The notes below the pieces were generated by a model, which worked only from the letters and a program-made list of their open reading frames with translations, ran no database searches and had not been told where the DNA came from. Position numbers and translations under genes: made by a program. This document shows, one piece after another, positions 9,682 through 17,151 of a DNA stretch of 28,844 nt (positions within the stretch are counted from its first letter, which is position 1; each line of letters begins with the position of its first letter). The DNA is from a virus, in IMG/VR virus record IMGVR_UViG_3300030118_001361, positions 1-28,844 of that record; one strand, given 5' to 3'.

Positions 9682-11871
9682 ATGAAGAAAAAAGACAATA
9701 TATCAGTAATACATTTAGCAGAATATAATCTGCCTACAATTACAGAAACAAACAATAAAGACTGGATTCAATTTGGATCAGATAATTTGTACCCTCAATA
9801 CTTACTAGAACTATACAACGGTAGTAGTATTAACAATGCTATTATAAAAGGTGTTAGTAGTATGATTTATGGCGAGGGTTTAGACGCTACTGATAGAGAA
9901 GATGACGATAATAAAAAGGGTAATTGGTTAGCTTTAAACACTTTGTTACATAATTCGCCTAAAGATACGTTAAAATGTTTAGCGTTTGATTTAAAGCTAT
10001 TTGGAATGTGCTATGTTAATACTATATGGAACAGACCTAGAACAAAGATAGTAGAGGTTAGGCATATACCTGCACAATATATAAGAAGTGGTAAAGCTGA
10101 TGCTTATGGTAAAGTAAATGAGTATTATTATAGTGCCGATTGGGAAAACACTAGAAAACACAAACCAAGATACTATAAAGCATTTGACTTAAAAGATAGA
10201 ACAGATGCAAATCAAGTTTTATGTATAAAAGATTATAGTCCTGGATCTTACTACTATGCAACTCCTGACTATCAGGGTTCTACTAGCTACATACAATTAG
10301 ATATGGAGATTGCACAATTTCATTTGTCTAATATCAAATCAGGTATGTTTCCGTCTATGGCAATAAATATGTCAAACGGAATACCAACAAGAGAAGAAAG
10401 AAGAACTATAGAAAGACAAATAAACGCTAAGTTTGGTGGTTCAGGTAATGCGGGTAAAATACTATTGACGTTTAATGATGGTAAAGATACTGCTCCTGAG
10501 ATAGTACCTATTAATGCTAATGACAATTCTGATAGCTACCAATTTTTATCTACAGAAACAACTAGAAAGGTTTTAACAGGACACAGGGTTACAAGTCCTT
10601 TATTATTTGGAGTAAAAGGAGATGGTTCAGGCTTTGGTAATAATGCAGATGAACTTAGAGATAGTTACAGCCTATTTAACAATACAGTTATAAAGCCATT
10701 TCAAAACACACTTTTAGAGGGTTTAGAGCCAATATTACACGCAAACGGTATAGAACTTGATTTATACTTTAAAACGCTAAAACCTGCTGATTTCATTGAT
10801 ATTAGTAATGTAAATAAACTTGATGAAGATGAACAAGAAAAAGAGGGTATAGATACTGATAACAATGAACCAATAAAAAAAGAGTTTAAAGACTTAAAAG
10901 ATATAGATACTAAGCCTACAAAAGGTATGATAGAACAGGCTAAAATTGGTTTAGAAATGCGTAAGGAATATGGTAGAGGTGGAACTATGGTTGCAGTTGC
11001 AAGAGCGCGTAATATTGTAAACGGAGATAATTTAAGTTTAGAAACAATTAGCAGAATGAACAGTTTTTTTGCTAGACACGAAGTAGATAAAAAAGCAGAG
11101 GGCTTTAATCCTGGAGAAAAAGGTTATCCCTCAGCAGGAGCGATAGCATGGAAGTTGTGGGGCGGAGATGCAGGTCAAACTTGGGCAAAAAAAAAAGTAG
11201 AAGAAATTAAAAAAGTAAGAGAAGATTTAGACCTGCCTAAAAATGATGAACAAGCATATATAGAATACTTTACACAAAATGCAATAAAGCTAGATGATGA
11301 TTGGGAAGAATTAAGAGTAGATACAGTTGATACTAACGAAGAAGAAGAAGAAAACTTTTACAAGTTTGCAACTGATGTTCCTGGCGGAGATACCGCAGGA
11401 AACTTATTAAAAGAAGCTACTAAGATTGGATTGTTTAAATTGTATTACAGATATTCAGCAAATATTTCAGCTAATAGTAGAGATTTTTGCAGAATAATGG
11501 TAGCACTTAGAAAAGCTAGAAACGTATATACAAGAAAAGCTATTTTAAATGCAGGTAGTAGAGCGGTAAATCCTGGATTTGGAAAGAATGGAAGCAATAC
11601 ATATTCAGTTTGGAATTGGAAAGGTGGAGTATATTGTCATCATTTTTGGGAGCGGGTATGGTATTTTAGAAAAAGAGTACCTAAAGGCGAACAAATAACA
11701 ATAGACGGAAAAACATATAAAGGTGGTCAAGTGTTACCTGATACAACAATTAGAAATTATAAAAAAGTTACAAATGCTTTTGCGGAAAGAATGGGGGTTA
11801 ATATGCCTTTTAATGATACTAAGGCAACTACTGCTCCTATCAACACTCCAACAAGAGGTAAATACAGTTAA
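9682..11871 (+). CDS. Portal protein fused to a C-terminal SPP1 gp7 / Mu F-like head-morphogenesis domain (729 aa)
   Basis: The N-terminal about 380 aa are portal-like (YQGSTSYIQLDMEIAQFHLSNIKSGMFPS...INAKFGGSGNAGKILLTF). An acidic linker follows, then the module RGGTMVAVARARNIV...LWGGDAGQTWAKKK. The MuF-like end reads SRDFCRIMV...YSVWNWKGGVYCHHFWERVW. Confidence 0.7.
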   Translation: MKKKDNISVIHLAEYNLPTITETNNKDWIQFGSDNLYPQYLLELYNGSSINNAIIKGVSSMIYGEGLDATDREDDDNKKGNWLALNTLLHNSPKDTLKCLAFDLKLFGMCYVNTIWNRPRTKIVEVRHIPAQYIRSGKADAYGKVNEYYYSADWENTRKHKPRYYKAFDLKDRTDANQVLCIKDYSPGSYYYATPDYQGSTSYIQLDMEIAQFHLSNIKSGMFPSMAINMSNGIPTREERRTIERQINAKFGGSGNAGKILLTFNDGKDTAPEIVPINANDNSDSYQFLSTETTRKVLTGHRVTSPLLFGVKGDGSGFGNNADELRDSYSLFNNTVIKPFQNTLLEGLEPILHANGIELDLYFKTLKPADFIDISNVNKLDEDEQEKEGIDTDNNEPIKKEFKDLKDIDTKPTKGMIEQAKIGLEMRKEYGRGGTMVAVARARNIVNGDNLSLETISRMNSFFARHEVDKKAEGFNPGEKGYPSAGAIAWKLWGGDAGQTWAKKKVEEIKKVREDLDLPKNDEQAYIEYFTQNAIKLDDDWEELRVDTVDTNEEEEENFYKFATDVPGGDTAGNLLKEATKIGLFKLYYRYSANISANSRDFCRIMVALRKARNVYTRKAILNAGSRAVNPGFGKNGSNTYSVWNWKGGVYCHHFWERVWYFRKRVPKGEQITIDGKTYKGGQVLPDTTIRNYKKVTNAFAERMGVNMPFNDTKATTAPINTPTRGKYS

Positions 11872-11874
11872 AAT

Positions 11875-12447
11875 ATGGCAATACAACATACATTATTTAT
11901 AAGTACAGACAGATTAAAACGAGATAGTGCTTTAGGTGGATCAGTAGATGACAATTTACTACTACCATATATTCTTATGGCACAAGATAGATACATACTA
12001 CCAATACTTGGTACTGATTTAACAAATAAGCTGATTTCAGATATACAAGGTAGTAGTTTGACGGGTAATTACTTAACACTTTTACAGACTTATATACAAC
12101 CTGCATTAGTGCAGTTTGCTTTTGCTACTGTTTTGCCTTTTTTACGTTTACGAATGGTAAATAATAGTGTGGTAACAATGTCAAGCGAACAGGGTAGTAG
12201 TGTAAGTCACGAAGATTTGAAACCCCTTATAAATGCAAGTATGGATCAGGGAGAATTTTACAGAGAAAGACTAATTGACTATATACAAAACAATACATCT
12301 TTATTTCCTGAATATTCTACTAACACAGGTGCAGACTTAACACCTACTACGCAGAATTACTATGCAGGTTTAAATTTAGATACAGCACCTTTAAGTAACA
12401 AAGCTAAATCTTTTTTACAGGGAGCAGATATAACTATATGTTGTTAA
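11875..12447 (+). CDS. Head-tail connector / head completion-like protein
   Basis: Directly follows the portal gene. The pattern LLLPYILMAQDRYILPILGTDL...YIQPALVQFAFATVLPFL resembles gp6-type connector proteins. Confidence 0.4.
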   Translation: MAIQHTLFISTDRLKRDSALGGSVDDNLLLPYILMAQDRYILPILGTDLTNKLISDIQGSSLTGNYLTLLQTYIQPALVQFAFATVLPFLRLRMVNNSVVTMSSEQGSSVSHEDLKPLINASMDQGEFYRERLIDYIQNNTSLFPEYSTNTGADLTPTTQNYYAGLNLDTAPLSNKAKSFLQGADITICC

Positions 12448-12518
12448 TATGATTACTAAACAAAAAGTTAAAGAAAGACAAAAAAACATAACTAAATTAA
12501 AAACTTATTTAAAGAAAA

Positions 12519-13064
12519 ATGGCAGGACAAAGACTAACAGACAAAACGGCTCTAAATAACCATACAGGATCAGGAGATTTATATATGGTAGTGGACGTAT
12601 CAGATACAAGTTCTAGTACAAGCGGTACGTCAAAAAAAATAGATTCTAAATTTGTAATACAAACAGATAAAATTACAATATCAGCAGCAGAATTTGGTGC
12701 TATGGACAGTTCAGGTAGTGCAGGTAAATTTAAAACATTAGTATCGGCTCCAGGTAGTGGTTATGCAATAGTGCCTTTAAATCTAGTTGTTGTAGTAACA
12801 GGTGTAACAGGTCCTTCTGCTGTAATTGCAACATTATATGCGGGGTATCTCAATAATTCTACTACTCAATTTGTTTACGCAAAATCTAAATTTATGCAAA
12901 ATTTTTTATTTGCTAATACTTTAGTTATGGCTAAAGACGGAAACAAGTATAGTAACAATACTACAATTGATAATTTACCTTTTTATATGTATTCTAGTGG
13001 AAATTTTGGTGGTAATTTTGGTGCAGATGTATATATAACATATCAAATAATAAAATTAGCATAA
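12519..13064 (+). CDS. Hypothetical virion protein (181 aa)
   Basis: Clean ORF. The N-terminal motif LTDKTALNNHTGSGDLYMVVDVSDTSSSTSGTSKKI is seen by eye in structural proteins of flavobacterial phages (from memory, unverified). Confidence 0.45.
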   Translation: MAGQRLTDKTALNNHTGSGDLYMVVDVSDTSSSTSGTSKKIDSKFVIQTDKITISAAEFGAMDSSGSAGKFKTLVSAPGSGYAIVPLNLVVVVTGVTGPSAVIATLYAGYLNNSTTQFVYAKSKFMQNFLFANTLVMAKDGNKYSNNTTIDNLPFYMYSSGNFGGNFGADVYITYQIIKLA

Positions 13065-14095
13065 TGGAAACATCTAAATATATCTATGCTTTACTAATAA
13101 TGCTTGTATTTGGTGTAGCAACCTGTAAAGGACAATTTTTTAAATATGCAACTTTCTATACGTCTATGAACATAAATACAAGTATGGTAGAAGATCAAGA
13201 CTATAGAGCAATAAACAGAGGTTATGAAGAAATTACACAAATCAATCCTTATGACTATTCTTTCCAAATTGGGATTAGAAAGGTTGCAAGATACGACTTT
13301 GAACAGAAAAAACGGACTTGGTATACGGGTTCTGATGAGCAAAGCTATAGCGATAATACTACTATCTCTAATAATATTGGGTGGGAGTATTTATTTAATT
13401 ACGCTTTTATACGTCATCGTTCTGAAAAATTTACTAATCAAGATTTTTGGATTAGATATTTAGGTAATAAAACTGTTACAAAAGCACAAATAAAGAATGA
13501 TGAAGCTAGAGATTTACAATTTACATCATTTGATACTAGATATAGAATAAACAAAGGTAGGTGGGATTTTACATTTGGTCTAGTAGGTAGAGGTCATAGA
13601 GTTTATGGCTACAATCCTATTGCAGAAACTTGGGAGAAAGGACAACAAACATTTTTTGATTTAGCTAATGATTTTGGTTATTCAAGACAATTTGTAAATG
13701 GAGATTGGCACTGGTTTAAAAACGATGAATTATTAGCAACGTCAAACGATGAGTTTTTTAAGCATTATTTTGGTTCAGCAATAGCTCAGTATAACCAAAA
13801 CGAAATAGACGCATTAGGTAGCGTTTATGAGCTATCTACAGTGCTTGGAATATCTTACTATAAGTACAGTAAAGACTTTTGGTTGTTAAGTTGGGTAAAT
13901 GTACTGCCATATCACTACGGACTAAATGATTTTAGTTATGATTATGAACAAGCTCCTATTGATGTTGATTTAGGACTTGTTACAGGTTGGAAGATAACAA
14001 AGTCATTAGGGGTATTTATAGAGGGTACTTATTTAAGGTATTGGGAAAAGCCTATCTATGAATGTAAATTAGGGTTTAATTATTTAATATTTTAG
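13064..14095 (+). CDS. Secreted outer-membrane beta-barrel-like protein (343 aa)
   Basis: It starts with a signal peptide (METSKYIYALLIMLVFGVATC-KGQ) and has many alternating aromatic/polar strands. The C-terminus ...KLGFNYLIF ends in Phe, like a BAM beta-signal. TAATG couples it to the upstream gene. Confidence 0.55.
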   Translation: METSKYIYALLIMLVFGVATCKGQFFKYATFYTSMNINTSMVEDQDYRAINRGYEEITQINPYDYSFQIGIRKVARYDFEQKKRTWYTGSDEQSYSDNTTISNNIGWEYLFNYAFIRHRSEKFTNQDFWIRYLGNKTVTKAQIKNDEARDLQFTSFDTRYRINKGRWDFTFGLVGRGHRVYGYNPIAETWEKGQQTFFDLANDFGYSRQFVNGDWHWFKNDELLATSNDEFFKHYFGSAIAQYNQNEIDALGSVYELSTVLGISYYKYSKDFWLLSWVNVLPYHYGLNDFSYDYEQAPIDVDLGLVTGWKITKSLGVFIEGTYLRYWEKPIYECKLGFNYLIF

Positions 14096-14097
14096 TT

Positions 14098-14607
14098 ATG
14101 AAAAAATTGTTATTATTTTTTGTGTTTAGTTTTGGCTTTAGTCAATCAAATTGTGAATTATGTGTAGAGCAAAATGGTTTTTATTGCGGAGATGATGAAT
14201 CTAATTGGACACAATATTCTCCTAATGGTTGTGTACCTAATGGTTTAAATGATTTGTTTTATCTTAACGATGGTTGGTCAGATTGTCAAGATTCAAGCGA
14301 TGAGCAAGATGCAGTACCAACAACTTTAGCTGATTGTGATATATACAATATTGCAGATACTATATTTATAACTGATACTTTATATGTTGATGTTATAGAT
14401 ACTTTGTATATAAACACAATAGATACTATAAATGTAACTGAATATATAGATTGTATTACAGGTTTGCCATGTAATAATTCTGCTATTGTAGAAATATTAA
14501 ACAAATCTAAAAACGAAAATAAAATATATAATATTGATGGTAAAGAAATATATAGACGTAAAGGGTTATATATAGAGAATGGAAAAATTAATTTTAAAAC
14601 AAAATAA
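14098..14607 (+). CDS. Secreted Cys-rich protein with an LDL-receptor class A-like Ca-binding motif, DT-rich octad repeats and a short T9SS-CTD-like tail
   Basis: Signal peptide MKKLLLFFVFSFGFSQ, six Cys in the first 80 aa, and DGWSDCQDSSDE (14269-14304). Repeats run DTIFIT/DTLYVDVI/DTLYINTI/DTINVTEYI (14356-14451). The C-terminus is KIYNIDGKEIYRRKGLYIENGKINFKTK. Confidence 0.5.
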   Translation: MKKLLLFFVFSFGFSQSNCELCVEQNGFYCGDDESNWTQYSPNGCVPNGLNDLFYLNDGWSDCQDSSDEQDAVPTTLADCDIYNIADTIFITDTLYVDVIDTLYINTIDTINVTEYIDCITGLPCNNSAIVEILNKSKNENKIYNIDGKEIYRRKGLYIENGKINFKTK

Positions 14608-14609
14608 AT

Positions 14610-14792
14610 ATGAAAAACGTAATAAATAAAATGATAAACAGTAGAAAATTTTGGTATGGATTATCTATACTAATGCTTATAATGTTTTCAGAAGATTTAG
14701 GAATTAGTGCAACAAAAATGCAATCAATGTTAATTGTAGTAGTAGCTTTAATATTAGGTCAAAGCTATGCTGATAAATCTTGCAGTAAATGA
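14610..14792 (+). CDS. Small two-TM membrane protein (holin/antiholin-like)
   Basis: 60 aa with hydrophobic segments FWYGLSILMLIMF and MLIVVVALILG. ATGA couples it to the next gene. Confidence 0.45.
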   Translation: MKNVINKMINSRKFWYGLSILMLIMFSEDLGISATKMQSMLIVVVALILGQSYADKSCSK

Positions 14793-15058
14793 AGATAAAC
14801 GAAAAATCAGAGTTCACACTTGATTTAAAGACAATTATAATGGTAGTTGGCTTTGCTATATCACTATCTGCAACATATTTTACATTGAAAGCTGAGGTTG
14901 AATTAGCAAAAACACTACCTAAAAGTGAAATATCACGTTCAGAGATGGATTTAAAGATGGAGTTAATTAGTAAAACTGTTTTATCAAACGCAGAAAAACT
15001 AGGCAAAATGGAAAGTGCCGTTGAAAAAATAGAGGAACGGGTTTACGAACTAAAATGA
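14789..15058 (+). CDS. N-terminally membrane-anchored coiled-coil protein (i-spanin-like topology)
   Basis: A single TM (IIMVVGFAISLSATYF) is followed by a charged helical region (EVELAKTLPK...KLGKMESAVEKIEERVYELK). ATGA overlaps occur at both ends. Confidence 0.4.
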   Translation: MKINEKSEFTLDLKTIIMVVGFAISLSATYFTLKAEVELAKTLPKSEISRSEMDLKMELISKTVLSNAEKLGKMESAVEKIEERVYELK

Positions 15059-15432
15059 AATTTTTAAAATACATATTACTATTGTTGGTAGGACAGACCA
15101 TAGCACAAACTACTGTTACAACTGAAAGTGCTTTAAATAAGCACACAAAAATTAATGGGATAGTTGTAGTAGAGTTTTGGGCAAAGTGGAATGATAAAAA
15201 TGCTTGTAGTTTTTTAAAAGACTTGGAAGATTGCAATACTGTTAGAGCAGATATTGGAATTAGTACAACACTACAAGAAAAATACGATATAGAAGTCCTA
15301 CCAACTTTAGTTGTTATTAACAATGGTGTTGAAATAACACGTTTTACAGGTAACATTTTATTTCAGCTAAATGTTAAAAAACAAGAAGTACAAGCCAAAA
15401 TAGATAGCATAATAATAAGTAAATTTGAATAA
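15055..15432 (+). CDS. Secreted thioredoxin-fold protein lacking the CxxC active site
   Basis: Signal peptide MKFLKYILLLLVGQTIAQ. VVVEFWAKWNDKNA aligns by eye to thioredoxin VDFWAEWCGPCK, and a cis-Pro-like LPTLVVINNGVE is retained. NDKN replaces CGPC at 15178-15201. Confidence 0.55.
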   Translation: MKFLKYILLLLVGQTIAQTTVTTESALNKHTKINGIVVVEFWAKWNDKNACSFLKDLEDCNTVRADIGISTTLQEKYDIEVLPTLVVINNGVEITRFTGNILFQLNVKKQEVQAKIDSIIISKFE

Positions 15433-16046
15433 TGAAACTAACATTAGATTTAATAGAAAACGCAGTAAAAGATAAAGGTTATAATTGGTTTGATAAAGGA
15501 GATTACAATTTAAATATAGTTGGTGTTAGAAATAGCGAAACCAACAACGAGGTTACAAATAAATTTGATGATAAAATTACACTATCTTACAAAGTAGATG
15601 GTAAATGGGAATTTTATAGTTTTGACGCTACTACGGATCCAGGTAAATATTGGGTAGAAAATATAATGAAGGTAGAGGGTGTTGCTTGTTTAAAGCCTGG
15701 ACAATACAAATCATACAGAATAGATAAGCACAGAGGTATTTATGATTGCTTAGCACAGAGGGAAGGCGAAGTAGAAGTATATAGAGATAACAACAAAGAT
15801 GGTTGCTATGATTTAGACGATGACAATACACAAACAGGTTATTTTGGAATTAACATACATAGAGCAACTGCAAGAGAGGGTAAAAAATCAACACAAGTAG
15901 ATAAATGGTCAGCAGGTTGTCAAGTTATAGCAAGTAATGATGATTGGAACGATTTTATATTTGCTTGTTATAAAGCTAGAGAAATTTGGGGAAACAAGTT
16001 TACTTATACATTAATTAATAGTGACGATATATATGAAAATTCTTAA
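15432..16046 (+). CDS. Candidate endolysin / peptidoglycan-active enzyme (YkuD-like His...SxGC motif)
   Basis: NIVGVRN...TTDPG...GQYKSYRIDKH...GINIHRATAREGKKSTQVDKWSAGCQV resembles L,D-transpeptidase-fold catalytic His/Cys signatures. It lies directly upstream of, and overlaps, the holin gene. Confidence 0.45.
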   Translation: MKLTLDLIENAVKDKGYNWFDKGDYNLNIVGVRNSETNNEVTNKFDDKITLSYKVDGKWEFYSFDATTDPGKYWVENIMKVEGVACLKPGQYKSYRIDKHRGIYDCLAQREGEVEVYRDNNKDGCYDLDDDNTQTGYFGINIHRATAREGKKSTQVDKWSAGCQVIASNDDWNDFIFACYKAREIWGNKFTYTLINSDDIYENS

Positions 16047-16416
16047 AAAATTATTAGGTACAGATAAAGTTATTGATAGTGTAGGTGGTATTATAGATGA
16101 CCTTGTTACTACTAAAGAAGAAAAAATACAAGCTAAAACAAAGCTAAAAGAGATTATCAACTCTTATAAAATAGAGGTAGAAAAAAACATAACAGCACGT
16201 TGGGAAGCAGATGCTAATGGTAATGTACTAACACGTTCTGTTAGACCTTTAGTTTTAATATTTCTTATAGTTTGTACTATGTTACTTGTGTTTATAGATA
16301 GTGGTTCTATAGCATTTGAAGTAGCAGACAAATGGACGGATTTATTACAACTTACATTAATAACAGTAATAGGAGCATATTTTGGTGGACGTTCGGTTGA
16401 GAAACTAAAAAAATAA
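16033..16416 (+). CDS. Holin (3-TM, GTA-release holin-like). The likely start is the ATG at 16033; the ORF track used a GTG at 16021.
   Basis: A charged helical N-terminus is followed by RWEADANGNVLTRSVRPLVLIFLIVCTMLLVFI and LLQLTLITVIGAYFGG TM segments. It overlaps the lysin 3' end. Confidence 0.55.
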   Translation: MKILKKLLGTDKVIDSVGGIIDDLVTTKEEKIQAKTKLKEIINSYKIEVEKNITARWEADANGNVLTRSVRPLVLIFLIVCTMLLVFIDSGSIAFEVADKWTDLLQLTLITVIGAYFGGRSVEKLKK

Positions 16417-16476
16417 ATTATCAAAAAAGATTATAGACTTAGACTAACTAAAGCTGAACACGATCTTATAAAAGAA

Positions 16477-17151
16477 ATGCGTGTTTCTAATGGTGGTGTA
16501 GTAAATAATGTTCTTGTTATTGGAGATTTACACGAACCTTTTTGCTTAGATAAATACCTAGAATTTTGTGTATCTAAATATGAACAATTTGATTGCACAG
16601 AAGTTGTATTTATAGGAGATATAATAGACAATCATTATTCAAGTTATCACGAAACAAATGCAGACGGAATGGGTGGAGCAGATGAATTAGAACTGTCTAT
16701 AAAACGTATTGCTAGATGGTATAAAGAATTTCCTATAGCAACTGTAATAATTGGAAATCACGACAGAATGATTTTTAGGAAAGGGCAAACGTCAGCAATA
16801 CCTAGTAAATGGATAAAAAGCTATAAAGAGGTTTTAGAAGTGCCTAATTGGAACTTTGTTGAAAGATACGTTAAAGATGGTGTTCAATTTTTACACGGAG
16901 AAAGTGGAACAGCCAAAACAAAGTGCAAAAGTGATATGATGAATACAGTACAAGGTCATTTACATACTCAAGCATATTGCGAACACTTTGTCGGTCAAAA
17001 TTTTAGAGTTTTTGGAATGCAGGTAGGTTGTGGTATAGATCACGAAAGTTACGCAATGGCTTATGCTAAATACGGAAAGAAACCTGCTATAGGTTGTGGA
17101 GTTGTTTTAAACAATGGTAAGTTACCTATAAATCTACTAATGGAATTATAA
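16477..17151 (+). CDS. Calcineurin-like metallophosphoesterase
   Basis: All canonical motifs occur in order: GDLHEP (DxH), GDIIDN (GDxxDR-like), GNHD, LHGE, GHLH. Confidence 0.8.
   Translation: MRVSNGGVVNNVLVIGDLHEPFCLDKYLEFCVSKYEQFDCTEVVFIGDIIDNHYSSYHETNADGMGGADELELSIKRIARWYKEFPIATVIIGNHDRMIFRKGQTSAIPSKWIKSYKEVLEVPNWNFVERYVKDGVQFLHGESGTAKTKCKSDMMNTVQGHLHTQAYCEHFVGQNFRVFGMQVGCGIDHESYAMAYAKYGKKPAIGCGVVLNNGKLPINLLMEL

What the first reader, a model, noticed from the sequence alone, without database searches (positions are those of the whole stretch)
14098..14607. Secreted Cys-rich protein with an LDL-receptor class A-like calcium cage, DT octad repeats and a T9SS-sorting-like tail
After a clear signal peptide the protein has six cysteines and the string DGWSDCQDSSDE (14269-14304). 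That string matches the hallmark DGxxDCxDxSDE acidic Ca-binding cage of LDLa modules, which are overwhelmingly eukaryotic. It is followed by four roughly 8-residue repeats, DT(L/I)(Y/F/N)..., encoded by repeated GATACT-containing units (14356-14451). The C-terminus IYNIDGKEIYRRKGLYIENGKINFKTK loosely resembles the last strands of Bacteroidota type IX secretion C-terminal domains. A phage-encoded protein exported to the cell surface would be unusual. It also hints at the host phylum.
Basis: partly seen in the sequence, partly recalled or inferred. Interest (0 to 1): 0.65.

Follow-up and report, generated by a model that had tools for sequence, protein, structure and literature searches.

The report
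Phage copy of host surface-glycoprotein scaffold
A marine Bacteroidota phage encodes a small exported protein assembled from host-type parts (an LDL-receptor-like calcium-binding head, a stalk of O-glycosylation sites and a C-terminal anchor-like tail), almost always paired with a phage outer-membrane barrel beside the lysis genes; its function is unproven.

Summary
The ORF (14098-14607, 169 aa) is a real gene with at least 1256 relatives, all from marine viral-type contigs.

LDLa-like head: supported. Pfam is sub-threshold (13.6 vs 24.1 bits), but a profile of the phage-type module alone hits only LDLa repeats in the PDB. The disulfides are rewired: C4 is lost, an N-terminal Cys is gained and the last Cys is moved.

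"DT octads": these form a dense array of the Bacteroidota O-glycosylation sequon D-(S/T)-(A/I/L/V/M/T), at 9.4 per 100 aa against 1.4 in shuffles. The stalk ranges from 9 to about 250 aa.

Tail: it is a portable module of fixed length at the extreme C-terminus of cellular Bacteroidota secreted proteins (trypsin, LamG, LRR and SprB-repeat passengers). It fails every T9SS type A, B and C model and is predicted as one helix plus a small sheet. It shares only short motifs with CTDs.

Context: the gene follows a phage beta-barrel gene in 69 of 70 loci and lies in one tightly coupled block with an i-spanin-like gene, a Trx-fold gene, a swappable endolysin and a holin. The block has no lipoprotein.

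Best reading (confidence 0.4): a late-made, glycosylated envelope protein docked at the outer membrane. A lysis role is the main rival.

The parts
14098..14607 (+). Whole gene, 169 aa plus stop: signal peptide, LDLa-like head, sequon stalk, Cys-loop and C-terminal tail
14098..14142 (+). Signal peptide (residues 1-15). Predicted SPase I cleavage is before invariant Q16, following the Bacteroidetes Q-rule
   Evidence: Q16 invariant. The same Q at +1 is seen in the barrel and Trx-fold neighbours and in the cellular relatives. Q-rule: PMC5837995. Cleavage itself is inferred.
14143..14340 (+). N-terminal Cys-rich module (residues 16-81; Cys 19, 22, 30, 45, 63, 80): an LDLa-related domain with rewired disulfides and a 14-residue C2-C3 insert (GDDESNWTQYSPNG)
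14260..14304 (+). Calcium-cage motif YLNDGWSDCQDSSDE (residues 55-69). It aligns to LDLa W-x-C4-D-G-x-x-D-C5-x-D-x-S-D-E, with C4 replaced by N57
   Evidence: Pfam stretch 58-71 matches profile positions 23-36. The acidic residues are invariant. PDB profile hits.
14338..14436 (+). Stalk (residues 81-113) with four D-T-[I/L] units at residues 87, 93, 101 and 109 (nt 14356, 14374, 14398, 14422), each a Bacteroidota O-glycosylation sequon. Length-variable in relatives
   Evidence: sequon: PMC8550257, PMC12871550
14437..14472 (+). Conserved TEYIDCITGLPC Cys-loop (residues 114-125; C119 and C125), which marks the start of the portable C-terminal module
14473..14604 (+). C-terminal tail (residues 126-169). 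Predicted as helix 128-140 followed by strands 143-145, 156-160 and 163-167; the only confidently modelled part (block-mean pLDDT 81-88)
13064..14095 (+). Partner gene: phage-specific outer-membrane beta-barrel-like protein, 343 aa, with a signal peptide and a C-terminal ...NYLIF. Its stop codon is 2 nt before the target's start
14610..14792 (+). Small 60-aa protein with two hydrophobic, TM-like segments (read by eye). Present in most but not all lineages
14789..15058 (+). 89-aa protein read as an N-terminal TM segment plus a periplasmic helical region (i-spanin-like architecture; by eye, no TM or coiled-coil predictor was run). No Cys. phrog_20984
15055..15432 (+). Signal-peptide thioredoxin-fold protein without a CxxC motif
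15432..16046 (+). Endolysin (phrog_3000 / phrog_33083). Replaced by unrelated lysins in most relatives
16021..16416 (+). Holin (phrog_3427; sub-threshold GTA_holin_3TM hit)

Best explanation
The gene encodes a late-expressed, Sec-exported envelope protein that copies the layout of its host's surface proteins: head, stalk, C-terminal anchor. Shown here: (1) an SPase-I-type signal peptide with Gln at +1; (2) a head that is a rewired LDLa-related calcium-cage module; (3) a stalk that is a dense array of the Bacteroidota O-glycosylation sequon; (4) a C-terminal Cys-loop plus 44-residue tail that also ends cellular Bacteroidota secreted proteins with unrelated passengers; (5) near-obligate pairing with a phage outer-membrane beta-barrel gene directly upstream; (6) tight start/stop coupling with an i-spanin-like gene, a Trx-fold gene, an endolysin and a holin. 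Inferred: after export the head forms three disulfides and binds Ca2+, and the host machinery O-glycosylates the stalk threonines in the periplasm. The tail then directs the protein to the outer membrane or cell surface, where it docks on the co-encoded barrel. This follows the logic of T9SS type-B cargo and their adjacent PorP/SprF barrels. The proposed role is to remodel or mask the surface of the infected cell and its debris around the time of lysis, for example to exclude superinfecting phage or to stop progeny adsorbing to debris. It is unlikely to be an indispensable lysis subunit. Rough likelihoods: exported, disulfide-bonded, Ca-binding envelope protein about 0.85; glycosylated stalk about 0.7; outer-membrane or surface anchoring through the tail about 0.5; the surface-masking role itself about 0.3.
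For: Real, conserved gene. Q at +1 is invariant, also in the barrel and Trx-fold partners and the cellular relatives (PMC5837995). LDLa relatedness of the head. The head module and the tail occur separately in cellular secreted proteins: the head inside large proteins that carry true Por_Secre_tail and dockerin domains, the tail on proteins with trypsin, LamG, LRR, SprB-repeat, DUF285 or thyroglobulin passengers. The tail is 54-56 residues from TEY to the stop codon in about 145 of 154 proteins. A cellular example sits among lipB, lysS and rpiB in a marine Bacteroidetes single-cell genome; further cellular-type loci have a matching GC of about 30%. Sequon array: 303 in 3231 stalk residues against 44 +/- 6 in shuffles; 98.7% of D[ST] dipeptides are followed by a compatible residue; almost none outside the stalk. 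The sequon drives periplasmic glycosylation of non-cytoplasmic Bacteroidota proteins (PMC8550257, PMC12871550). Stalk length of 9 to about 250 aa behaves like a surface spacer. Barrel partner: aromatic C-terminus in 111 of 118 members, AF2 pLDDT 76.8 and pTM 0.66, Foldseek hits only to outer-membrane barrels. Pairing: barrel upstream in 79 of 80 loci, target downstream in 69 of 70. Cargo-barrel precedent: PMC9143113, PMC12618676. Accessory character: L234 lacks the target but keeps the rest of the block, and L114 has the target alone in a tail-gene region.
Against: No localisation, glycosylation or Ca-binding data exist. The tail fails the T9SS type A, B and C models and the barrel fails the PorP/SprF models, so the export route across the outer membrane is unknown. 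The tail-barrel contact is untested because no multimer prediction was available. The tight association with lysis genes across at least three phage lineages, despite endolysin replacement, would equally fit a lysis function. A surface-masking role does not explain why an inner-membrane coiled-coil protein and a Trx-fold protein travel with the pair. The L114 homologue has only one sequon, so glycosylation is not universal. AF2 confidence is low for the head and stalk.
Confidence: 0.4

Rival explanations
1. Lipoprotein-free trans-envelope lysis complex. The barrel (outer-membrane anchor), the target (periplasmic linker), the TM-coiled-coil protein (inner-membrane anchor) and the Trx-fold protein together replace a two-component spanin and disrupt the outer membrane after the holin and endolysin have acted.
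For: Genes from 12519 to 16416 have overlapping or near-abutting start and stop codons, ending in endolysin and holin. The four-gene set stays next to lysis genes in several lineages even though the endolysin is non-orthologously replaced (lysin204 in only 26 of 80 loci; an M15-type endolysin, phrog_894, in L077). The block contains an i-spanin-like gene but no lipobox ORF under strict or loose criteria. Kongari et al. found no spanins in 91 of 677 phages of Gram-negative hosts, and the T4 o-spanin family also has a variable linker followed by a conserved beta-alpha-beta region (PMC6139136).
Against: The same stalk and tail cap cellular proteins whose passengers look extracellular. Target length varies from 124 to 382 aa while the coiled-coil partner stays at 89-115 aa, with no compensating trend (rho +0.38). 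L234 keeps the barrel, small TM protein, coiled-coil protein, Trx-fold protein and holin but lacks the target, and L114 has the target with none of them. The target has no lipid anchor, and no contact with the coiled-coil protein has been shown.
Confidence: 0.25
2. One reading: a genuine T9SS cargo whose tail is a reduced type-A CTD. It would be recognised by the host SprA/PorV, translocated, and either released or attached to the surface after CTD cleavage.
For: The position and behaviour of the tail match a CTD. KIYNxxG[KQ]E[IV] and G[IL]YIExG resemble conserved CTD strands; hhalign aligns the first with the equivalent strand of true CTDs (P = 0.0025, 19 columns). The best PDB hits of the tail profile are the extreme C-termini of two CAZymes, at least one of them from Bacteroidales (E = 0.14 and 0.17; PMC8810776). 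A solved Por-secretion CTD is among the four hits of the cellular tail profile (E = 1.2). True CTDs themselves score only E = 0.2-1 with a small profile. The same cellular lineage uses a second, even shorter CTD-like tag.
Against: No hit to PF18962, TIGR04183, TIGR04131 or NF033708 at permissive thresholds, although the positive control P0141 hits TIGR04183 at 7.5e-11. hhalign probability is only 11.7%. The tail has 44-56 residues, against a 72-75-position type-A model. AF2 predicts a helix plus 3-4 strands. A true-CTD profile does not find 4kca or 7jvi. All sequence matches are statistically insignificant.
Confidence: 0.2
3. A soluble periplasmic factor, such as a Ca2+ buffer or competitor, or a sink for the host O-glycan or oligosaccharyltransferase, that perturbs envelope homeostasis without being anchored.
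For: An acidic Ca-cage head and an acidic stalk (14% Asp) carrying many sequons.
Against: This does not explain the strongly conserved, fixed-length C-terminal tail shared with cellular proteins, nor the near-obligate barrel partner. Stoichiometry makes bulk chelation implausible (inference).
Confidence: 0.07

Closest known systems
LDL-receptor class A (complement-type) repeat, Pfam PF00057
   Same: The C3-to-C5 half with the acidic cage (aromatic-x-x-D-G-x-x-D-C-x-D-x-S-D-E) aligns to profile positions 23-36. Profiles of the module hit only LDLa repeats in the PDB. Both have six cysteines.
   Different: C4 is replaced by Asn, an extra Cys sits three residues before C1, and the last Cys lies 16 residues after C5 instead of about 8. 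The C2-C3 loop is 14 residues (DESNWTxYSPNG) instead of about 5. The module is below the Pfam threshold. It occurs in bacterial and phage proteins, not metazoan ones.
T9SS C-terminal sorting domains (type A TIGR04183/PF18962; type B TIGR04131; type C NF033708), and type-B cargo paired with PorP/SprF barrels
   Same: A soluble, strand-containing module at the extreme C-terminus of Sec-exported Bacteroidota proteins with varied passengers. Short motif resemblance to conserved CTD strands. The gene is adjacent to a dedicated outer-membrane barrel gene, as for SprB-SprF and other type-B pairs (PMC9143113, PMC12618676).
   Different: No HMM match. About half the length of a type-A CTD. Predicted as a helix plus a small sheet, preceded by a Cys-loop and a sequon-rich stalk. 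The barrel does not match the PorP/SprF models. Dependence on the T9SS is untested.
Two-component spanins (lambda Rz/Rz1; T4 PseT.3/PseT.2)
   Same: Lies in the lysis block next to a type-II TM plus coiled-coil protein. Cys-containing. A variable linker followed by a conserved small alpha/beta region, as in the T4 o-spanin family (PMC6139136).
   Different: No lipobox or lipid anchor. Far larger and variable in length. The modules are shared with cellular secreted proteins. Absent from one otherwise intact cassette (L234).
Substrates of the Bacteroidota general O-glycosylation system
   Same: A non-cytoplasmic protein carrying the D-(S/T)-(A/I/L/V/M/T) sequon.
   Different: The sequons are packed into a repetitive stalk at about 9 per 100 aa, 2-20 per protein among those counted, which is more like a mucin-type linker than scattered sites. 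The protein is phage-encoded.
Phage-encoded envelope accessory proteins placed near late or lysis genes (lambda Bor and Lom, T5 Llp; from general knowledge, not tested here)
   Same: Small exported proteins made by a phage that sit in or on the host outer membrane and modify surface properties or block receptors.
   Different: No sequence relationship. Those are lipoproteins or 8-strand barrels. This is a head-stalk-anchor mosaic with its own barrel partner.

Membership tests
LDLa repeat (PF00057) | Scores above the Pfam gathering threshold | tested here: not met
   13.6 bits against 24.1, E = 0.083, 14 residues matched. 13 of 15 family members give only sub-threshold hits, best E = 0.011.
LDLa repeat (PF00057) | Acidic Ca2+ cage: D-x-x-x-D...D-E plus a preceding aromatic residue | tested here: met
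   Y55, D58, D62, D65, D68 and E69 are present; D58, D62, D65, D68 and E69 are invariant and Y55 is at least 90% conserved in the family.
LDLa repeat (PF00057) | Six Cys with canonical spacing (C3-x6-C4-x5-C5-x8-10-C6), pairing C1-C3, C2-C5, C4-C6 | tested here: not met
   C4 is Asn57, an extra Cys19 is present, and the last Cys is 16 residues after C5. In 53 modules the two patterns are mutually exclusive: 29 phage-type and 23 canonical. The actual pairing cannot be determined (AF2 pLDDT 50-65).
LDLa repeat (PF00057) | Profile-level homology to solved LDLa repeats | tested here: met
   The phage-subtype-only profile A6 hits only LDLa chains: LRP2 3.6e-25, VLDLR 2e-7, 2knx 1.2e-4. The mixed profile A5 does likewise.
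LDLa repeat (PF00057) | Binds Ca2+ | not testable with these tools
   Needs biochemistry or a confident structure.
T9SS type A CTD (TIGR04183 / PF18962) | HMM match | tested here: not met
   No hit for the target, 15 family members or 10 cellular tail-bearing proteins at E <= 0.1 to 10. The control P0141 hits at 7.5e-11.
T9SS type A CTD (TIGR04183 / PF18962) | Sits at the extreme C-terminus of Sec-signal proteins of Bacteroidota with diverse passengers | tested here: met
T9SS type A CTD (TIGR04183 / PF18962) | A seven-strand beta-sandwich (general knowledge) matching a 72-75-position model | tested here: not met
   The tail is 44 residues after the Cys-loop, or 54-56 from TEY. AF2 gives a helix plus 3-4 strands at block-mean pLDDT 81-88. 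Foldseek finds nothing.
T9SS type A CTD (TIGR04183 / PF18962) | Conserved CTD sequence motifs | tested here: inconclusive
   hhalign against 7 true CTDs: 11.7% probability, 19 columns over the YNLxGQxV strand. Weak PDB matches at E = 0.14 to 1.2.
T9SS type A CTD (TIGR04183 / PF18962) | T9SS-dependent export and CTD removal | not testable with these tools
   Requires genetics in a T9SS-proficient and a T9SS-deficient host.
T9SS type B (TIGR04131) and type C (NF033708) sorting domains | HMM match | tested here: not met
   No NCBIfam hit at E <= 10.
PorP/SprF barrel with cognate cargo | The barrel belongs to the PorP/SprF family (PF11751 / TIGR03519) | tested here: not met
   No Pfam or NCBIfam hit for the 343-aa protein. 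Foldseek gives only generic outer-membrane barrels, TM-score 0.2-0.35. No PDB sequence match.
PorP/SprF barrel with cognate cargo | Cargo gene genetically linked to the barrel gene | tested here: met
   79 of 80 and 69 of 70 loci, with gaps mostly of 5-6 nt.
o-spanin | Lipoprotein signal with a lipobox Cys | tested here: not met
   Cys19 is preceded by S-N; its distance from the hydrophobic region varies between relatives; it is the module's extra N-terminal Cys, also found at internal positions in cellular proteins; Q16 is invariant.
o-spanin | Encoded with an i-spanin in the lysis cassette | tested here: inconclusive
   An i-spanin-like TM-coiled-coil gene lies 180 nt downstream in the same block, but L234 lacks the target and L114 lacks the cassette.
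Bacteroidota O-glycoprotein | D-(S/T)-(A/I/L/V/M/T) sequon in a non-cytoplasmic protein | tested here: met
   Four sequons in the window protein; about 7-fold enrichment over shuffles across the family.
Bacteroidota O-glycoprotein | Glycan actually attached | not testable with these tools
   Needs glycoproteomics or a gel shift.

The most novel reading that the evidence does not exclude
The four co-inherited genes (outer-membrane barrel, LDLa-stalk-tail protein, TM-coiled-coil protein, Trx-fold protein) form a lipoprotein-free trans-envelope machine that marine Bacteroidota phages use in place of spanins to breach the outer membrane. In this reading the tail is a previously unrecognised Bacteroidota outer-membrane targeting signal that the phage has captured from its host.
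Probability: 0.2. Interest if true: 0.8.

Novelty: new variant of a known kind. Interest (0 to 1): 0.55.

Why it matters
Four points would matter if the reading holds:

1. It defines an unannotated and very abundant marine phage gene family (more than 1200 proteins) and shows it is a mosaic of two host extracytoplasmic modules. That gives a concrete host-phylum marker for roughly 30-kb uncultured phages.
2. It exposes a C-terminal module (sequon stalk, Cys-loop, 44-residue tail) used by an uncultured marine Bacteroidota lineage and missed by all current sorting-domain models. This is a candidate new anchoring or secretion signal.
3. It documents a disulfide-rewired LDLa-type calcium module in bacteria and phages.
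4. It points to a conserved four-gene envelope module next to the lysis genes of phages that lack recognisable spanins. That makes the open question of how Bacteroidota phages breach the outer membrane experimentally approachable.

Tried and rejected
- **GenBank phages.** No DNA match for the region, and no tblastn match for the target or the barrel.
- **Family libraries.** PHROGs and NCBIfam gave nothing for the target.
- **Foldseek on the target model.** Nothing, because the model is poor outside the tail.
- **Tail versus true CTDs.** hhalign was not significant.
- **True CTD profile versus PDB.** It did not pick up 4kca or 7jvi, so I could not call those C-termini type-A CTDs.
- **Lipoprotein or o-spanin reading of the target or any nearby ORF.** Rejected after strict and loose lipobox scans.
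- **DNA tandem repeat as the origin of the DT units.** TRF found none.
- **PorP/SprF or PorV identity for the barrel.** Rejected by HMMs, Foldseek and PDB sequence search.
- **Periplasmic-ruler test.** No inverse correlation between target length and coiled-coil length.
- **Third large protein search, with the 58-aa tail profile.** It returned only proteins of 103 aa or less, so it gave no census of passengers.
- **Literature on the single-cell genome AG-343-M05.** No paper found.
- **Thioredoxin neighbour as a dedicated oxidase for the eight cysteines.** Rejected: it has no CxxC, and relatives have only one Cys or none in the motif region.
Full report
**1. Observation**

- The N-terminus MKKLLLFFVFSFGFS is followed by Q16, which is invariant in 15 diverse relatives.
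- DGWSDCQDSSDE occupies residues 58-69 (nt 14269-14304).
- Four GATACT hexamers lie at 14356, 14374, 14398 and 14422. The whole window holds 24, so about 0.05 would be expected in 72 bp. They encode DTI87, DTL93, DTL101 and DTI109.
- Corrections: there are eight cysteines, not six, with six of them in the N-terminal module. The repeat spacings are 6, 8 and 8 residues. TRF sees no tandem repeat at the DNA level.
- The gene is real. It has 1256 homologues at E <= 0.01 in marine metagenomes and 80 IMG/VR loci, mostly on contigs of about 30 kb. It has no match in GenBank phages, PHROGs or NCBIfam.

**2. Anatomy from the family alignment**

The alignment resolves five parts:
1. a signal peptide;
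2. a module of about 62 residues with six invariant cysteines and invariant N57, D58, W60, D62, C63, D65, D68 and E69;
3. a length-variable block of D/E-T(Y)-hydrophobic units;
4. a conserved TEYxDCxTGLPC Cys-loop;
5. a conserved 44-residue tail.

An exhaustive profile search of 1.84 billion cluster representatives gave 144 hits. It showed that the N-terminal module and the C-terminal block (parts 3-5) occur independently of each other in other proteins.

**3. The head is LDLa-related but rewired**

- Pfam gives only a sub-threshold partial hit: E = 0.083, 13.6 bits against a cut-off of 24.1, covering residues 58-71 and profile positions 23-36. 13 of 15 family members behave the same way.
- The module recurs inside large cellular secreted proteins. 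Many of those copies read YICDGWDDCVDASDEADC, which is the canonical LDLa C4-x5-C5-x8-C6 spacing. These copies reach about 22-30 bits on Pfam LDLa, and the proteins also carry true Por_Secre_tail and dockerin domains.
- Across 53 modules, two cysteine patterns are mutually exclusive. In 29 modules, including the phage's, there is an extra Cys three residues before C1, no C4, and a last Cys 12-19 residues after C5. In 23 modules C4 is present, there is no extra Cys, and the last Cys is mostly 8 residues after C5. This looks like a swapped third disulfide; C19-C80 in the phage protein is inferred, not shown.
- A profile of both subtypes hits only LDLa-repeat chains in the PDB. So does a profile built from the C4-less subtype alone: LRP2 3.6e-25, VLDLR 2e-7 and the single-repeat chain 2knx 1.2e-4. 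The match always covers the C3-to-C5/6 calcium-cage half.
- The N-terminal half differs from LDLa. It has a 14-residue C2-C3 loop, DESNWTxYSPNG.
- AlphaFold did not model the head confidently (pLDDT 50-65), so neither fold nor disulfide pairing could be checked.
- Conclusion: an LDLa-derived calcium-cage module, common in marine bacterial exoproteins, but not a canonical LDLa repeat.

**4. The "DT octads" are an O-glycosylation sequon array**

- In 89 non-redundant stalks, I, T, D, V and Y make up 73% of residues and Gly and Pro are almost absent. Spacings between D/E-T(Y) units are even 448 times and odd 19 times.
- D[ST][AILVMT] occurs 303 times in 3231 stalk residues, or 9.4 per 100 aa. Composition-preserving shuffles give 44 +/- 6, with a maximum of 61 in 500.
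- 98.7% of D[ST] dipeptides are followed by a sequon-compatible residue. Outside the stalk the density is about 0.01 per 100 aa, and in the other window ORFs it is 0.34 per 100 aa.
- This tripeptide is the sequon of the Bacteroidota general O-glycosylation system. That system modifies non-cytoplasmic proteins in the periplasm, and engineered sequons become glycosylated (PMC8550257; PMC12871550).
- Sequon counts are 4 in the window protein, 6 in L077, 20 in the 381-aa L082 homologue and 12 in the cellular LRR protein of L081.
- Caveat: the L114 homologue has one sequon and uses E-Y-[IV] units instead, so the repeat also has a structural rationale.
- Stalk length ranges from 9 to about 250 residues.

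**5. The tail is a portable C-terminal module of cellular Bacteroidota proteins**

- Proteins ending in the Cys-loop and tail carry signal peptides of the form MKKLLLLIIPFLSFGQ. Their passengers are unrelated: trypsin, Laminin_G_3, thyroglobulin-1, SprB repeats, DUF285 and LRR.
- The distance from TEY to the stop codon is 54-56 residues in about 145 of 154 proteins.
- Among 185,579 species-representative genomes, only one carries the tail: the single-cell genome "uncultured Bacteroidetes bacterium AG-343-M05". There it ends an LRR protein encoded between lipB, lysS, rpiB and an M28 peptidase gene.
- A metagenome scan gave about ten further cellular-type loci with GC of 29-34%; the window's GC is 29.6%.

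Is the tail a T9SS CTD?
- Against: no hit to the type A, B or C models at permissive thresholds, with a working positive control. hhalign against seven true CTDs gives 11.7% probability over 19 columns. AF2 predicts, at block-mean pLDDT 81-88, one helix (128-140) and three or four short strands, not a seven-strand sandwich.
- For: the tail behaves like a CTD. The YNLxGQxV strand aligns with true CTDs. The two best PDB hits of the tail profile (E = 0.14 and 0.17) are the extreme C-termini of two CAZymes, a rumen-metagenome arabinanase (4kca) and CapGH173 from a Bacteroidales MAG (7jvi), sharing IY[DN]LxG[RQ]xV..G[IL]YIxNGK (PMC8810776). A solved Por-secretion CTD appears among the four hits of the cellular tail profile at E = 1.2. 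True CTDs themselves often score only E = 0.2-1 with a small profile. The same cellular lineage also uses a shorter tag of about 33 residues...VDILGR...GFQLHIYNDGSVDKKYLIK.
- Verdict: a sorting- or anchor-like module, possibly a reduced CTD derivative. Membership is not demonstrated.

**6. Host**

- Q at +1 after the signal peptide is seen in the target, the barrel, the Trx-fold protein and the cellular relatives. This matches the Bacteroidetes Q-rule (PMC5837995), which has already been noted for signal-peptide genes of P. gingivalis phages (PMC10367356).
- The best cultured relative by portal is Nonlabens phage P12024S/L at 34.5% identity.
- With the sequon array and the cellular homologues, a marine Bacteroidota host is well supported. 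It is probably a low-GC uncultured lineage near AG-343-M05.

**7. Context**

- The block from 12519 to 16416 has overlapping or near-abutting start and stop codons. Its order is: unknown 181-aa protein; 343-aa barrel-like protein; target; 60-aa protein with two TM-like segments; 89-aa TM-coiled-coil protein; signal-peptide Trx-fold protein without CxxC; endolysin; holin.
- Across 80 viral loci the order barrel, target, (tm60), TM-coiled-coil, Trx, [lysin], holin is essentially universal. The window-type lysin is present in only 26 of 80 loci, and at least in L077 an M15-type endolysin (phrog_894) takes its place.
- The four-gene core also occurs on 60-kb contigs with different structural genes. 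It occurs in a further lineage with a 3175-aa gene, where a DUF5675 protein of unknown function (phrog_1501) lies upstream.
- The barrel family has 298 relatives, all about 340 aa. It ends in an aromatic residue in 111 of 118 members, folds at pLDDT 76.8 and pTM 0.66 into long antiparallel strands with a helical insert, and matches only outer-membrane barrels such as NanC, OmpG, porins, autotransporter translocators and FapF, at low TM-scores. It matches no PorP/SprF or other family model.
- From the barrel's side, 69 of 70 loci have the target directly downstream.
- Two exceptions are informative. L234 has the barrel, a small TM protein, the coiled-coil protein, the Trx-fold protein and a holin, but no target. 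L114 has the target alone between a 162-aa tail-tube-like ORF and a 777-aa tape-measure-like ORF (both read by eye) in another phage lineage.
- No lipobox ORF exists in 12400-16700 under strict or loose criteria. The only loose hit is the target's Cys19, which is the module's extra N-terminal Cys.
- Target length (124-382 aa) does not trade off against coiled-coil length (89-115 aa); rho is +0.38.

**8. Interpretation**

*What is shown.* The gene encodes an exported mosaic of two host-type extracytoplasmic modules joined by a sequon-rich stalk. It is almost always paired with a phage outer-membrane barrel and is co-operonic with lysis genes.

*Best-supported mechanism (confidence about 0.4).*
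1. Sec export and SPase I cleavage before Q16.
2. Disulfide formation and Ca2+ loading of the head.
3. Periplasmic O-glycosylation of the stalk.
4. Tail-mediated delivery to the outer membrane or cell surface, and docking on the co-encoded barrel. This follows the logic established for T9SS type-B cargo and their adjacent PorP/SprF barrels (PMC9143113, PMC12618676).
5. The result would be a host-like glycoprotein that remodels or masks the surface of the infected cell and its debris at about the time of lysis.

Its head-stalk-anchor layout, the extracellular-type passengers of its cellular relatives, the spacer-like variation in stalk length and its occasional absence or solitary occurrence all fit an accessory surface protein.

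*Main rival (about 0.25).* The barrel, target, coiled-coil protein and Trx-fold protein form a lipoprotein-free spanin substitute. This reading is favoured by the persistent linkage to lysis genes, the lack of any o-spanin and the presence of an i-spanin-like gene. Kongari et al. found no spanins in 91 of 677 phages (PMC6139136). It is weakened by L234, L114, the length data and the cellular homologues.

*Other rivals.* A plain T9SS type-A cargo reading (about 0.2) and a soluble periplasmic factor (about 0.07) remain possible.

**9. Novelty and limits**

- No Pfam, PHROG or NCBIfam family covers the protein, the tail or the barrel.
- The LDLa-like variant, the sequon-stalk-plus-tail module and the four-gene envelope block appear undescribed in the literature I could search.
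- Each element resembles a known kind, so I rate the finding a new variant of a known kind.
- Nothing about localisation, glycosylation, Ca binding or partner contacts is experimentally or structurally established here.
- Only two structure predictions were available and none was a multimer.
- The last large protein search returned only short fragments.

Noticed in passing
window 13064-14095: A phage-specific family of about 340-aa outer-membrane beta-barrel-like proteins (298 relatives). It has a signal peptide with Q at +1 and a C-terminal NYLIF, matches no Pfam, PHROG or NCBIfam family, and shows a helical insert at residues 185-251 in the AF2 model. A phage-encoded barrel of this size next to lysis genes is unusual in itself.
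   Followed up: partly
window 10900-11260 (portal residues ~407-526): A segment of about 100-120 residues inside the portal ORF (matching phrog_2859) is 49-68% identical to segments of Roseobacter CRP phages and Synechococcus phage S-CBS1, where the matches overlap features annotated as major capsid or portal protein. The rest of the portal is only about 34% identical to its best relative. This looks like a shared or mobile insert domain.
   Followed up: no
window 15055-15432: A signal-peptide thioredoxin-fold protein that lacks the CxxC motif (WAKWNDKNAC). Relatives have one Cys or none in this region. It is conserved with the barrel, target and coiled-coil genes in every lineage examined. 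Its function is unknown.
   Followed up: partly
window 15432-16046 and the equivalent position in L025-L080: Non-orthologous replacement of the endolysin at a fixed position in an otherwise conserved block. The window type (phrog_3000 / phrog_33083) occurs in 26 of 80 loci. L077 has an M15-type endolysin (phrog_894). In L082 a DUF5675 protein (phrog_1501, unknown function) lies upstream of the barrel.
   Followed up: partly
window 14610-14792: A 60-aa protein with two hydrophobic, TM-like segments between the target and the coiled-coil gene. It is present in 62 of 80 loci and could be a second holin or an antiholin.
   Followed up: no
L087 3-530, L089 2-463; proteins P0154 and P0138: The same low-GC cellular lineage uses a second, very short C-terminal tag of about 33 aa (...VDILGR...GFQLHIYNDGSVDKKYLIK). 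It also escapes the Por_Secre_tail models and looks like a minimal CTD ending.
   Followed up: partly
proteins P0141, P0144, P0206, P0218, P0220, P0222: Large marine bacterial proteins that combine LDLa-type modules, dockerin type I, a SYGDGWNGN-containing repeat and a bona fide T9SS type-A CTD. LDLa-type calcium modules are evidently common in these exoproteins.
   Followed up: partly
proteins P0148, P0157, P0158, P0171, P0180 (cellular tail-bearing proteins): A recurrent Cys motif of about 22 residues, C(T/M)(D/N)xxACNYNPxAxxDDGSCxY, is repeated upstream of the stalk in many host-lineage proteins. I did not identify it with any family.
   Followed up: no
L234 4517-4720; L114 1226-1837: Natural variants: one phage keeps the whole block but lacks the target gene, and another carries the target alone in an apparent tail-gene region. 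These would serve as natural knockout and solo cases for functional inference.
   Followed up: yes
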